Positions 30,447 through 32,000 of a stretch of DNA of 32,000 bases are shown here, piece after piece. This DNA comes from Halomicronema hongdechloris C2206 (lineage in GTDB: Bacteria; Cyanobacteriota; Cyanobacteriia; Phormidesmidales; Phormidesmidaceae), in NCBI RefSeq assembly GCF_002075285.3, contig NZ_CP021983.2, forward strand, positions 4,620,001-4,652,000, written 5' to 3'. Positions within the stretch are counted from its first letter, which is position 1, and each line of letters starts with the position of its first letter. The position numbers and the translations under genes were made by a program. The notes below the pieces were generated by a model. That model did no database searches. It had not been told where the DNA came from and saw only the letters and a list, made by a program, of their open reading frames with translations.

Positions 30447-32000
30447 TTATCGTCGCATCAAAAACGGCAATCGGTAGAACCAGAGGGTAGCCAGCGGTAG
30501 GGCAATGGGCAGAAGCACCAGCCCAGCAACATAGACTTGCAGGCTAATGATGGCATAGAGTAGGGAGCCACTGACTAGGAAGATGCACTGCCGCCGCCGG
30601 TGGAGGCTAGTCTGGTCGATTACTTTGCTCAGTAATGCCGCCATTAGTACTAACCACAGGTCGGGCAGGGGCACGACCAAATGGCGGTGGCGAAAGTGGT
30701 GAAACAAATAGCCATGGACTTCGCCTCCCAGGAGAACGGTGCTGTTATTGGCAGGAGCCTGGCGCTGACGCCAGTAGGCCATGGCTGCAGGCAGGGGGAA
30801 ATTGTCTTCATTGAGTTCGCTGACACCAGCTTCGCCGTATCCCCCTGGCATGATCATCACCACTGCTTGGGGATAGTCCTGCCGCAGCTGCGGGGGTGAG
30901 CTTTCTAGGAGCTGCCAAGCCGGTATTTGGCTGTAGAGCCGCTGCGGTGGCAGGGAGTAGTCGACGATGGGATGCAACCAGGTTTGCCCCAGACGATAGG
31001 CACTGGTGGTCACCGAGGCAGGCTGCATGCGGGGAGAGGTTAAGTGGGCTGGTACCGCTTGGTGTCCTTGGGAGAGGTCGACGGATTGGTGGCCTGAGCT
31101 CAGGACGTCAGCCAGGGCCATGAGATAGGCCAGGGGGAGGGGCCAGTCGGGACTATAACGGCTGAGAAGTAGGGGCACTAAGCGCCCCTGGCCAAATAAC
31201 TTGATGTCCCCTTGCCAGCTCCAGTCGGGGTTGCCTAGGGCCGGTAGAGGGGTTAGCCACTGCCCAGTTTGGTCGAGGTAAGTGGCTAGAATAAACCAGA
31301 TATCGTCTTGAGCCGCAGTCTCTAGGGTCTGGGCCAGGATATTGTCGTCACTGACTAAGGGGCGATCTAGAAGATAGTCAATGCTGATGACCGCTGGTTG
31401 CAATTGGGCAGTTTTGTCGACGACCCGCGCCAGATAGCGCCGATCCATGGGCCGGGGGTTGCTAATGTCGGCCCGGATCAGAGAATCATTGTCGATGGTG
31501 ACTAGCAGCAGCTCTGGCGATGCAGCCGGCAGCTGGCCGGTGCGATCGCGGTAGATGGCTTGGCTCCAGAGTCGCTGATCTAGCAAGCCCCGTTGTAGAG
31601 GGGGCAGTAGACTCAGGGTTACCATCACCCCGATCACGGCGACTTCGTAGCGGGTTGGCAGCCAGGCCCGTAGTTGCTGGCGCCAGCCCTTGGGGGCAAT
31701 GCGGTAGAGGGGGGCATCGGGGTGGCGAAACAGGGACGGGACTAAGTGAGCCGAGGGATAGGTGAGGGCATGCTCTAGTTTGAGGGCCTGACTGGCCTGG
31801 ATCAGGGCGGTGTGGACGTCGTCGTGGGCGGCTAGCCGCTGCAGGAAGCGGCGCAGGAATACATGGGCCACTTGGTTATGGACCGGTTCTCGAAAGATGG
31901 CGACCTGGCTCAGGCCTAGGTCGATCAGGGATTCGGCTAGATTGAGGCCGCTGCAGGAGTTGAAGAGGGCAAAGCGCAGGCCCCGTTGCTGGGCGATGGC
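30447..32000 (-). CDS. CHAT (caspase-fold) protease fused to a CHASE2 extracytoplasmic sensor domain and C-terminal TM helices; 5' end beyond the window
   Basis: The frame is open to base 32000, and the track start (GTG 31871) is internal. The upstream residues AIAQQRGLRFALFNSCSGLNLAESLIDLGLSQVAIFREPVHNQVAHVFLRRFLQRL...ALIQASQAL resemble the CHAT C-terminal half, including a candidate catalytic Cys (NSC). Next come a TM segment (VAVIGVMVTLSLL), a ~330-aa CHASE2-like region (LLLVTIDNDSL...VISIDYLLD...), and three C-terminal TM helices. Confidence 0.8.
   Translation of the reverse strand, partial: AIAQQRGLRFALFNSCSGLNLAESLIDLGLSQVAIFREPVHNQVAHVFLRRFLQRLAAHDDVHTALIQASQALKLEHALTYPSAHLVPSLFRHPDAPLYRIAPKGWRQQLRAWLPTRYEVAVIGVMVTLSLLPPLQRGLLDQRLWSQAIYRDRTGQLPAASPELLLVTIDNDSLIRADISNPRPMDRRYLARVVDKTAQLQPAVISIDYLLDRPLVSDDNILAQTLETAAQDDIWFILATYLDQTGQWLTPLPALGNPDWSWQGDIKLFGQGRLVPLLLSRYSPDWPLPLAYLMALADVLSSGHQSVDLSQGHQAVPAHLTSPRMQPASVTTSAYRLGQTWLHPIVDYSLPPQRLYSQIPAWQLLESSPPQLRQDYPQAVVMIMPGGYGEAGVSELNEDNFPLPAAMAYWRQRQAPANNSTVLLGGEVHGYLFHHFRHRHLVVPLPDLWLVLMAALLSKVIDQTSLHRRRQCIFLVSGSLLYAIISLQVYVAGLVLLPIALPLATLWFYRLPFLMRR

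What the first reader, a model, noticed from the sequence alone, without database searches (positions are those of the whole stretch)
30447..32000. CHASE2 sensor with a protease (CHAT) output instead of a nucleotide-cyclase or kinase output; the ORF-track start is internal
The reading frame upstream of the track's GTG (31871) has no stop up to the window edge. It encodes a CHAT-like C-terminal segment (..FALFNSCSGLN...VAIFREPVHNQVAHVFLRRF..). Topology read from the sequence is cytoplasmic CHAT, one TM, a ~330-aa periplasmic CHASE2 domain, then three TMs. A caspase-fold protease would therefore be wired directly to a transmembrane receptor. That would be proteolytic rather than second-messenger signal transduction.
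Basis: partly seen in the sequence, partly recalled or inferred. Interest (0 to 1): 0.65.

Follow-up and report, generated by a model that had tools for sequence, protein, structure and literature searches.

The report
Known cyanobacterial CHAT-protease/CHASE2 membrane receptor
The window ends inside a real 810-residue membrane protein that joins a caspase-like (CHAT) protease to a CHASE2 sensor, but this design is common in filamentous cyanobacteria, has already been catalogued by comparative genomics, and has no experimentally shown function.

Summary
The minus-strand frame 30447..32000 is open to the window edge. The GTG at 31871 is internal: it is residue 337 of the 810-aa protein P0001, downstream of the catalytic Cys309.

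The full protein has, in order: a conserved N-terminal alpha+beta domain, a CHAT domain, one TM helix, a ~305-aa CHASE2 domain, then three TM helices and the stop. CHAT scores above the Pfam cut-off, His265 and Cys309 are invariant in 116 homologues, and the model matches SAVED-CHAT, Csx29 and separase.

- More than 660 cyanobacterial homologues share it.
- Kaur et al. 2021 (eLife) list it as EACC2+caspase+CHASE2+TM, with a DUF1822 gene and a sigma/HTH gene upstream and a secreted beta-rich protein and TPR-caspase genes downstream. I recover that neighbourhood in 20 or more related loci.
- A metacaspase-CHASE2 protein with the same 1+3 TM topology was described in 2010 and 2012.

The signalling mechanism (periplasmic signal, then cytoplasmic proteolysis, then a transcriptional or effector response) remains inference.

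The genome is Halomicronema hongdechloris. In this window the downstream DUF928-like partner gene is frameshifted.

Novelty: already known. Interest: low to moderate.

The parts
30447..32000 (-). 3' 1554 nt of the CHAT-CHASE2 receptor-protease gene. It encodes residues 294-810 of the 810-aa protein P0001, plus the stop codon. The 5' ~880 nt lie beyond the window edge.
   Evidence: Open frame. 100% match to P0001. Pfam CHAT and CHASE2.
31710..32000 (-). C-terminal part of the CHAT (caspase-fold) domain, residues 294-~390. It includes the catalytic Cys309 codon at 31953-31955. The catalytic His265 lies off-window.
   Evidence: Pfam CHAT 246-369. H265 and C309 are invariant in 116 sequences. Foldseek hits to CHAT proteases.
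31869..31871 (-). GTG used by the ORF track. It is an internal Val337 codon, not the true start.
31581..31649 (-). TM helix 1 (residues ~411-433), preceded by a Lys/Arg-rich cytoplasmic segment.
   Evidence: Hydropathy and charge counts. AF2 helices 410-447.
30669..31580 (-). Extracytoplasmic CHASE2 domain (residues ~434-737).
   Evidence: Pfam PF05226, E=8e-13, residues 418-745. AF2 pLDDT is mostly >90 in this region.
30465..30668 (-). Three C-terminal TM helices (residues ~738-805). The protein ends 5 residues later, with no C-terminal output domain.
29799..30442 (-). Distant DUF928-like secreted partner gene. Here it is split over three reading frames by two 1-nt insertions in C-runs. Only the 170-aa GTG ORF (29799-30311), which lacks the signal peptide, stays open.
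   Evidence: Three-frame translation against the intact 216-aa homologue in L023. DNA alignment A1. Present next to the receptor gene in 21 of 22 GTDB loci plus the window, and overlapping its stop by 1-32 nt in 15 of them. It also overlaps in L023 and L024. Signal peptides and two invariant Cys. Pfam DUF928 is weak, matching 4 of 23 members.
28083..29231 (-). TPR-repeat protein of 382 aa with no CHAT domain. It occupies the position where related loci carry TPR or TPR-CHAT genes.
   Evidence: Pfam TPR_12, E=7.5e-38. TPR-CHAT genes in related loci. The link is weak because TPR repeats cross-match one another.
25728..28073 (+). Orthocaspase (Peptidase_C14) with DUF4384. The likely true start is ATG 25833 or 25854, ahead of a twin-arginine (Tat-like) signal MKRRQLLQSAGG. 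The homologous gene lies within 10 kb of the operon in 15 of 23 loci.
   Evidence: Pfam C14 6.4e-23 and DUF4384 5.1e-14. Clustering. RR motif in all full-length members.

Best explanation
The gene encodes the Halomicronema hongdechloris orthologue of a widespread cyanobacterial transmembrane receptor-protease.

Its layout is: a conserved N-terminal alpha+beta domain (the 'EACC2' of Kaur et al. 2021), a catalytically intact CHAT caspase-fold domain in the cytoplasm, one TM helix, an extracytoplasmic CHASE2 sensor domain, and three closing TM helices with nothing after them.

It is the third gene of a conserved operon. The order is: sigma/HTH-like protein, DUF1822 (TRADD-N+TPR) protein, CHAT-CHASE2, then a secreted DUF928-like protein. 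TPR-CHAT and Tat-signal orthocaspase genes often flank it.

Most likely mechanism (inferred, not shown):
- A periplasmic cue, possibly involving the co-translated DUF928-like protein, changes the CHASE2/TM bundle.
- This activates the cytoplasmic CHAT protease.
- The protease cleaves itself or its operon partners (DUF1822 adaptor, sigma-like protein).
- That releases a transcriptional and/or effector-protease response of the conflict or programmed-cell-death type.

Shown here: the architecture, the topology signals, the catalytic dyad, the operon and its conservation. Inferred: the ligand, the substrate and the output.
For: Architecture:
- Pfam CHAT and CHASE2 are both above cut-off on P0001.
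- The AF2 model has pLDDT 85.7. It shows a beta3-helical N-domain (23-175), an alpha/beta caspase-like fold (177-385) and 1+3 TM helices.
- Foldseek top hits are SAVED-CHAT 8tl0 (5e-9), Csx29 8eex, separase, DdvA 8rot and caspase-9.

Activity:
- FAGH265S and FNSC309 are invariant in 116 homologues of 41-83% identity. CHAT is the most conserved region, with mean column conservation 0.76.

Topology:
- There is no N-terminal signal peptide, and Lys/Arg counts follow the positive-inside rule.

Operon:
- In the 82%-identical relative L023, the genes are 485 aa / DUF1822 / CHAT-CHASE2 / 216 aa, with 4-nt overlaps. L024 and L025 show the same.
- Of 22 GTDB loci, 19 or more carry the upstream pair and 21 the downstream gene.
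- The sigma-like protein P0137 and the 170-aa P0136 map to the same 5,577,845-bp contig as P0001.

Literature:
- Kaur et al. [quoted passage not shown] They propose stimulus-induced autopeptidase activation coupled to an ECF sigma factor.
- Asplund-Samuelsson et al. 2012 give the same 1+3 TM topology argument for a metacaspase-CHASE2 protein.
Against: - No experiment exists for any member. Literature searches for EACC2, CHAT+CHASE2 and DUF928 found none.
- I could not confirm that the upstream '~470-aa' protein is a sigma factor. Pfam and PDB sequence searches were negative. A confident AF2 model (pLDDT 90) has no significant PDB fold match.
- No public EACC2 profile was available, so homology of the N-domain to EACC2 rests on position and on the matching neighbourhood.
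- The upstream operon genes are outside the window, and their adjacency in this genome could not be read.
- The DUF928-like partner is frameshifted here, so the module may be impaired in this strain.
Confidence: 0.8

Rival explanations
1. Effector-release (EACC-type) logic rather than receptor-to-protease signalling. In this reading the CHAT domain is the regulated switch. Its autoproteolysis frees or remodels the CHASE2/4-TM module, or the N-terminal domain. The freed part then acts as a membrane-perturbing or adaptor effector in an abortive-infection or cell-death response. CHASE2 would then be an output rather than an input.
For: - Kaur et al. name the N-terminal module an 'effector-associated constant component'. 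They list multi-TM, possibly pore-forming, C-terminal variants in the same family.
- A nearly invariant L90-R91-G92 motif sits in a low-confidence loop (pLDDT 43-54, residues 87-100). That is the kind of place an autocleavage site would occupy.
- Some loci are on plasmids, and some carry Uma2 nuclease genes nearby. This fits conflict systems.
Against: - CHASE2 is an established extracytoplasmic sensor module of kinases and cyclases (Pfam description; Zhulin et al. 2003, as cited).
- The periplasmic domain is well conserved and is paired with a dedicated secreted partner gene. This fits sensing better.
- There are no hits to PADLOC defence models.
Confidence: 0.12
2. The CHAT domain is a non-catalytic scaffold (pseudo-protease). 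The protein would then signal by protein-protein interaction with the DUF1822/TPR and sigma-like partners, like an anti-sigma factor, without proteolysis.
For: - The Pfam CHAT score is marginal (26.3 against a cut-off of 24) and covers only profile positions 134-269 of 289.
- DdvA, a transmembrane CHAT-containing anti-sigma factor and a structural hit, has an 'incomplete' active site.
Against: - His265 and Cys309 and their flanking motifs (FAGHS, FNSC) are invariant across 116 sequences of only ~45% overall identity. That degree of conservation is not expected for a dead site.
- CHAT is the most conserved segment of the protein.
Confidence: 0.06
3. In this genome the module is a decaying remnant. 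The operon would be non-functional in H. hongdechloris, because the partner gene is frameshifted and the neighbourhood carries other broken genes.
For: - Two frameshifts in the DUF928-like gene.
- A split TcA fragment and an IS transposase elsewhere in the window.
Against: - The 810-aa receptor ORF is intact and keeps all invariant residues.
- Both indels are single C insertions in C-runs, so they could be assembly errors.
- The sigma-like gene is intact at 462 aa.
Confidence: 0.1

Closest known systems
EACC2-caspase-CHASE2 systems with DUF1822 (TRADD-N+TPR) and ECF-sigma/HTH neighbours (Kaur, Iyer, Burroughs, Aravind, eLife 2021; PMC8195603)
   Same: - The domain order is the same: N-terminal constant alpha+beta domain, caspase-fold domain, CHASE2 with TM helices.
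- The neighbourhood is the same: DUF1822 upstream, a secreted beta-rich protein downstream, and TPR-caspase genes nearby.
- It is cyanobacterial.
   Different: I found no difference in kind. In this window the upstream genes are cut off, the TPR neighbour lacks a CHAT domain, and the downstream partner is frameshifted. The paper calls the extra neighbour an ECF sigma factor, and I could not confirm that with sequence or fold searches.
Metacaspase(Peptidase_C14)-CHASE2 protein of Trichodesmium erythraeum (Jiang et al. 2010, PMC2853523; Asplund-Samuelsson et al. 2012, PMC3501461)
   Same: [quoted passage not shown] The protease is predicted cytoplasmic and the receptor outside.
   Different: P0001 and a Trichodesmium MAG homologue (P0105) match Pfam CHAT, not Peptidase_C14, even at E<=10. 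I could not determine whether the published protein is the same orthologue under another label or a parallel fusion.
DdvA, transmembrane anti-sigma factor with a TPR-CHAT domain, Myxococcus xanthus (PDB 8rot; PMC11506125)
   Same: A membrane-spanning protein with a CHAT domain, genetically coupled to a dedicated sigma-type regulator. Signal-induced caspase-like autoproteolysis has been proposed for it. It is a structural hit at E=1.3e-6.
   Different: In DdvA the CHAT domain is periplasmic, has an incomplete active site, and is joined to a cytoplasmic zinc-binding anti-sigma domain. Here the CHAT domain is cytoplasmic with an intact dyad, the periplasmic part is CHASE2, and no anti-sigma domain was detected.
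HetF of Anabaena PCC 7120 (CHAT-TM-TPR; PMC8406250)
   Same: A cyanobacterial, membrane-anchored CHAT protease with an N-terminal CHAT domain followed by a TM segment.
   Different: HetF has a single TM segment and a TPR domain, with no CHASE2. It acts in cell division and heterocyst initiation. No orthology is implied.
Canonical CHASE2 receptors (adenylate/diguanylate cyclases, Ser/Thr and His kinases; Pfam PF05226)
   Same: The sensor cassette is the same: TM, CHASE2, three TM helices.
   Different: The output domain is N-terminal to the sensor instead of C-terminal, and it is a protease. The protein ends right after TM4.
Soluble CHAT proteases Csx29 (Craspase), SAVED-CHAT and separase
   Same: The CHAT fold and the His-Cys dyad. 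These are the best structural matches. All are allosterically switched proteases.
   Different: They are regulated by RNA-guided complexes, cyclic oligonucleotides or securin. None is an integral membrane receptor.

Membership tests
Pfam CHAT (PF12770), clan CD caspase-fold proteases | Profile score at or above the gathering cut-off | tested here: met
   The full protein scores 26.3 bits against a cut-off of 24, E=6.3e-6, residues 246-369. The window fragment alone scores 20.1 bits, below the cut-off. Of the 120 listed homologues, 96 carry a precomputed PF12770 hit.
Pfam CHAT (PF12770), clan CD caspase-fold proteases | Catalytic His...Cys dyad present | tested here: met
   H265 (FAGHS) and C309 (FNSC) are invariant in the 116-sequence alignment A2.
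Pfam CHAT (PF12770), clan CD caspase-fold proteases | Caspase/CHAT three-dimensional fold | tested here: met
   The AF2 model (pLDDT 85.7) matches SAVED-CHAT, Csx29, separase, DdvA and caspase-9 at E from 5e-9 to 1e-3. The geometry of the dyad in the model was not inspected.
CHASE2 receptors (PF05226) | CHASE2 profile match above cut-off | tested here: met
   49 bits against a cut-off of 26.3, residues 418-745.
CHASE2 receptors (PF05226) | One TM before and three TM after the domain, placing it outside the cytoplasm | tested here: met
   Hydropathy peaks at 411-433, 738-756 and 766-803, with positive-inside charge counts. AF2 helices at 410-447, 741-756, 761-782 and 789-809. These are predictions only, and no dedicated topology predictor was available.
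CHASE2 receptors (PF05226) | Cytoplasmic output domain (cyclase, kinase or GGDEF) C-terminal to the last TM | tested here: not met
   The protein ends 5 residues after TM4. The only other catalytic domain is the N-terminal CHAT.
EACC2-caspase-X systems (Kaur et al. 2021) | Constant N-terminal alpha+beta 'EACC2' domain immediately before the caspase domain | tested here: inconclusive
   A conserved domain (residues ~23-175; three strands, then helices, then a strand; pLDDT >90) precedes CHAT. No EACC2 profile or reference sequence was available for a direct comparison.
EACC2-caspase-X systems (Kaur et al. 2021) | Variable C-terminal module, here CHASE2 with TM helices | tested here: met
   The paper's supplement lists 'EACC2+CASPASE+CHASE2+TM+TM'.
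EACC2-caspase-X systems (Kaur et al. 2021) | Adjacent DUF1822 (TRADD-N+TPR) gene | tested here: met
   DUF1822 scores E=3.4e-52 in L001. It lies immediately upstream of the receptor gene in L023, L024 and L025. It is present in 20 of 22 GTDB loci. In the window's own genome this position is beyond base 32000 and could not be read.
EACC2-caspase-X systems (Kaur et al. 2021) | Adjacent ECF sigma factor gene | tested here: inconclusive
   A conserved ~470-aa gene is present in 19 loci, and P0137 lies on the same contig as P0001. Pfam and PDB sequence searches were negative. hhalign aligns only an RpoE sigma4-like HTH, probability 1.4%. There is no significant fold match.
Peptidase_C14 metacaspase/orthocaspase-CHASE2 fusion (Trichodesmium type) | Peptidase_C14 profile match in the protease domain | tested here: not met
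   There is no PF00656 hit at E<=10 for P0001 or for the Trichodesmium homologue P0105. Only CHAT is detected.
DdvA-type transmembrane CHAT anti-sigma factors | Cytoplasmic zinc-binding anti-sigma domain and a periplasmic TPR-CHAT | tested here: not met
   No anti-sigma or zinc-finger domain was found. CHAT lies on the cytoplasmic side of TM1.
DUF928 (PF06051), for the downstream partner gene | Profile score above the gathering cut-off of 26 bits | tested here: not met
   The window ORF scores 18.9 bits. Only 4 of 23 family members match, best E=8.5e-7. It is a distant relative at most.

The most novel reading that the evidence does not exclude
The operon could be a two-compartment proteolytic relay.
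- The translationally coupled, secreted, disulfide-bonded DUF928-like protein would be the physiological ligand or bait of the CHASE2 domain. It might itself be processed by the Tat-exported orthocaspase-DUF4384 encoded nearby, or by an invader's protease.
- Its state would be relayed across the membrane to the cytoplasmic CHAT protease.
- The CHAT protease would then cleave the DUF1822 (TRADD-N+TPR) adaptor and free a highly divergent sigma-like transcription factor.

The published catalogue does not describe the DUF928-like link or the Tat-orthocaspase link. Together they would define the first bacterial receptor-caspase pathway with a known ligand and substrate.
Probability: 0.12. Interest if true: 0.7.

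Novelty: already known. Interest (0 to 1): 0.25.

Why it matters
If the inferred mechanism is right, this family would be a bacterial counterpart of death-receptor and caspase signalling. An extracellular cue would be converted directly into intracellular proteolysis, without phosphorylation or a second messenger, in multicellular cyanobacteria.

That idea is already in print and is untested, so this locus adds no new concept. Its practical value is threefold.
- It is a clean, high-confidence example: the dyad is intact, the model has pLDDT 85.7, and the four-gene operon is defined.
- It gives a specific candidate periplasmic partner, the DUF928-like protein.
- It gives candidate cytoplasmic substrates: the DUF1822 protein, the sigma-like protein, and the conserved LRG loop.

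These make the hypothesis directly testable in a tractable relative.

Tried and rejected
- **Reading the DNA beyond base 32000.** Exact look-ups of P0001 and P0137 found no contig on record. The GTDB scan returned only relatives of 50% identity or less. Adjacency in this genome is therefore inferred from the 82%-identical L023 and from shared contig length.
- **Confirming the upstream ~470-aa protein as an ECF sigma factor.** All tests were negative or non-significant.
  - Pfam scan of 20 members.
  - Profile against PDB sequences.
  - AF2 plus Foldseek.
- **Defence-system membership.** PADLOC gave no hit for the receptor, DUF1822, sigma-like or DUF928-like proteins. NCBIfam has no model for the receptor.
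- **Is the neighbouring orthocaspase HetF?** I considered this because an NsiR1 sRNA lies upstream, and I rejected it. HetF is CHAT-TM-TPR, and in Anabaena NsiR1 is antisense-oriented to hetF. No NsiR1 was found in six related loci.
- **Literature.**
  - The Zhulin et al. 2003 CHASE2 paper could not be fetched.
  - 'CHAT domain' + CHASE2 returned nothing.
  - The only held DUF928 paper is a WD40 survey that notes a CHASE2/DUF928 gene pair in Nostoc punctiforme.
- **N-terminal module with other C-terminal domains.** I did not search separately for this. The tools list only the best 120-150 hits, and CHASE2 orthologues would fill that list. For this point I rely on the paper's supplement.
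Full report
**1. The observation**

On the minus strand, the frame ending at the TAA at 30447-30449 is open all the way to base 32000. It spans 517 codons. The ORF list shows only the 474-aa version that starts at the GTG at 31871.

A database search with the 517 residues returned P0001. It is an 810-aa protein, 100% identical over the whole query, on a 5,577,845-bp contig. The gene therefore continues for about 293 codons past the window edge. The GTG is codon 337 of the real protein.

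A product started at the GTG would lack both catalytic residues of the protease domain:
- His265 is off-window.
- Cys309 is encoded at 31953-31955.

**2. What the protein is**

Pfam finds both domains.
- Window fragment: CHASE2 at E=2.7e-13, plus the C-terminal part of CHAT at E=4.9e-4.
- Full protein: CHAT at 26.3 bits (cut-off 24, residues 246-369) and CHASE2 at 49 bits (cut-off 26.3, residues 418-745).

I aligned 116 homologues of 41-83% identity (A2).
- The motifs FAGH265S and FNSC309 are invariant.
- The CHAT region is the most conserved part of the protein.

An AlphaFold2 model built on that alignment is confident (mean pLDDT 85.7). It shows:
- an N-terminal alpha+beta domain (strands 23-53, helices 56-143, strand 146-153);
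- an alpha/beta domain (177-385);
- a TM helix;
- a mixed alpha/beta extracytoplasmic domain;
- three closing helices.

Foldseek against the PDB gives these top hits:
- SAVED-CHAT (8tl0, E=5e-9)
- Csx29/TPR-CHAT of Craspase
- separase
- the transmembrane anti-sigma factor DdvA (8rot)
- caspase-9

- Hydropathy peaks lie at 411-433, 738-756 and 766-803.
- The N-terminus is acidic with no signal peptide.
- Lys/Arg-rich stretches lie before TM1, between TM2 and TM3 (HRRRQ), and at the C-terminus (MRR).

The periplasmic span is about 305 residues. The protein stops five residues after the last TM, so CHAT is the only catalytic domain.

**3. Context**

The family is large. The search found 668 proteins at E<=1e-5. 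Every hit that carries a source name is cyanobacterial. All but three of the 120 listed are about 800-870 aa long. Most are annotated 'CHASE2 domain-containing protein', and 96 of the 120 have precomputed CHAT+CHASE2 hits.

I clustered ORFs from 22 genome loci together with the window. This revealed a conserved neighbourhood:
- a ~470-aa protein with no Pfam domain (19 loci);
- a DUF1822 protein (20 loci; E=3.4e-52);
- the CHAT-CHASE2 gene;
- a ~225-aa protein directly downstream (21 loci plus the window);
- TPR-CHAT genes (in most loci);
- a Peptidase_C14-DUF4384 orthocaspase (15 of the 23).

Gaps between the first four genes are mostly overlaps, or under 45 nt. The stop of the receptor gene overlaps the start of the downstream gene by 1-32 nt in 15 of the 22 GTDB loci.

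The closest relative is L023, at 82% identity. It has exactly this four-gene operon. L024 and L025 do as well.

The window contains the distal part of this arrangement: receptor, downstream gene, a TPR protein and the orthocaspase. The proximal genes lie beyond the edge.

The ~470-aa homologue P0137 is 83% identical to the L023 protein. It is named as coming from Halomicronema hongdechloris and lies on a contig of the same length as P0001. So does the 170-aa downstream ORF P0136. This identifies the organism and indicates that the operon is present. I could not read its adjacency directly.

**4. The downstream partner**

All members have an N-terminal signal peptide, a GGSRG-x-C motif and two invariant cysteines, one near each end of the mature protein. 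This fits a disulfide-bonded periplasmic protein.

It is only distantly DUF928-like. Four of 23 members hit the profile, and the window copy scores 18.9 bits against a cut-off of 26.

In the window the gene is broken. The signal-peptide part starts at the ATG at 30442 and runs into a stop. Two single-C insertions relative to L023 shift the frame twice. Only the GTG ORF 29799-30311 remains open, and it lacks the signal peptide. This is either a pseudogene or a homopolymer assembly error.

**5. Comparison with what is known**

The arrangement is already in the literature.

Kaur, Iyer, Burroughs and Aravind (eLife 2021, PMC8195603) describe proteins with three parts: a constant N-terminal alpha+beta domain (EACC2), then a caspase domain, then a variable C-terminus. 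[quoted passage not shown] They propose stimulus-induced autopeptidase activation, with a final step through the TRADD-N protein and/or the sigma factor.

[quoted passage not shown] That is the neighbourhood I recovered independently.

There were earlier reports too.
- Jiang et al. 2010 listed a CHASE2-bearing metacaspase in Trichodesmium.
- Asplund-Samuelsson et al. 2012 described its one-plus-three TM topology and concluded that the receptor faces outside and the protease acts in the cytoplasm.
- A 2020 review drew a model of CHASE2-linked orthocaspase signalling.
- A 2017 survey noted a CHASE2/DUF928 gene pair in Nostoc punctiforme.

I found no experimental study of any member.

The nearest experimentally studied analogues are:
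- DdvA: a periplasmic TPR-CHAT with an incomplete active site, coupled to the ECF sigma factor DdvS.
- HetF: CHAT-TM-TPR.

**6. Membership caveats**

- **EACC2.** Homology of the N-domain could not be tested directly, because no profile was available. The assignment rests on position, conservation and the matching neighbourhood.
- **Sigma factor.** The label for the ~470-aa protein was not reproduced. Sequence profile searches were negative. hhalign aligned only a sigma4-like helix-turn-helix to RpoE, without significance. A confident model (pLDDT 90.2) had no significant fold match.
- **Protease family.** By Pfam the protease domain is CHAT, not Peptidase_C14.
- **CHASE2 layout.** Unlike classical CHASE2 receptors, this protein has no C-terminal output domain.

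**7. Mechanism**

- **Shown:** the domain architecture, the intact dyad, the topology signals, the operon structure and its conservation.
- **Inferred:** CHASE2 senses a periplasmic cue, possibly through the co-translated secreted partner. The TM bundle transmits it. The cytoplasmic CHAT protease is switched on. It then cleaves itself or its operon partners, giving a transcriptional and/or effector-protease response.

A nearly invariant L90-R91-G92 motif in a low-confidence loop of the N-domain is a candidate processing site. This is speculation.

The rivals are effector-release logic, a pseudo-protease scaffold, and a decaying locus in this strain. They are discussed with their evidence in the rival-explanations section. 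None is favoured.

**8. Verdict**

However, this is an ordinary member of a widespread family that has already been catalogued and whose function is still untested. Novelty is 'already known', and interest is low to moderate (0.25).

The only elements I did not find in print are the tight coupling to the secreted DUF928-like protein and the frequent neighbourhood of a twin-arginine-signal orthocaspase. They underlie the 'novel case', which I rate at about 12% probability.

Noticed in passing
window 25598-25657 (+): A full-length match to the heterocyst-associated sRNA NsiR1 (Rfam RF02399): 64 bits against a gathering score of 39. The conserved 5' UGGUAGAUGCACCCUGAU and a terminator hairpin with a U-tail are both present. 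It lies between a tetrapyrrole methylase gene (24698-25489, -) and the orthocaspase gene. The genome is named as Halomicronema hongdechloris, which to my knowledge does not form heterocysts. In Anabaena the NsiR1 copies lie upstream of hetF, a CHAT protease gene, in the opposite orientation. No NsiR1 was found in six related loci.
   Followed up: partly
window 29799-30442 (-): The DUF928-like partner gene is split over three frames by two single-C insertions, compared with the intact 216-aa homologue in L023. The annotated 170-aa product (P0136) lacks the signal peptide. This is either a pseudogene or a homopolymer assembly error.
   Followed up: yes
window 25728-28073 (+); also L007, L009-L014, L017, L020, L022: The Peptidase_C14-DUF4384 orthocaspases next to the operon all begin with a conserved twin-arginine motif (KRRxFLQFAGS). 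This suggests Tat export to the periplasm or the thylakoid lumen. In the window the motif is at residue 43 of the TTG ORF, so the true start is probably ATG 25833 or 25854.
   Followed up: partly
window 5227-11790: A Tc-toxin locus in decay. A TcA C-terminal (TcB-binding) domain is split into two overlapping ORFs in different frames (5858-6502 and 5227-5916, -). A DDE transposase lies at 6529-7944 (+). A TcB/SpvB-type gene lies at 7951-11790 (-).
   Followed up: no
L020 and L022 (whole loci): Two of the related CHAT-CHASE2 operons are on plasmids: Calothrix brevissima NIES-22 plasmid2 and Tolypothrix tenuis PCC 7101 plasmid1. In the Lyngbya/Limnoraphis loci, Uma2-family putative nuclease genes sit between the TPR-CHAT and orthocaspase genes. 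Both hint at mobility or a conflict-system role.
   Followed up: no
P0137 (off-window; the upstream operon gene in the same genome) and alignment A4: The conserved ~470-aa first gene of the operon gives a very confident model (pLDDT 90.2). It is mostly helical, with a small N-terminal beta-hairpin and several invariant Cys (C75, C85, C228, C356, C455). It has no significant match in Pfam, PDB sequences or PDB folds. The literature calls it an ECF sigma factor, and that is not evident from these tests.
   Followed up: partly
window 20719-24606 (-): A 1295-aa ORF combines Sortilin/BNR (YCF48-like) beta-propeller repeats with a C-terminal PMT_2 glycosyltransferase-type membrane domain. This is an unusual combination, and I did not look into it.
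   Followed up: no
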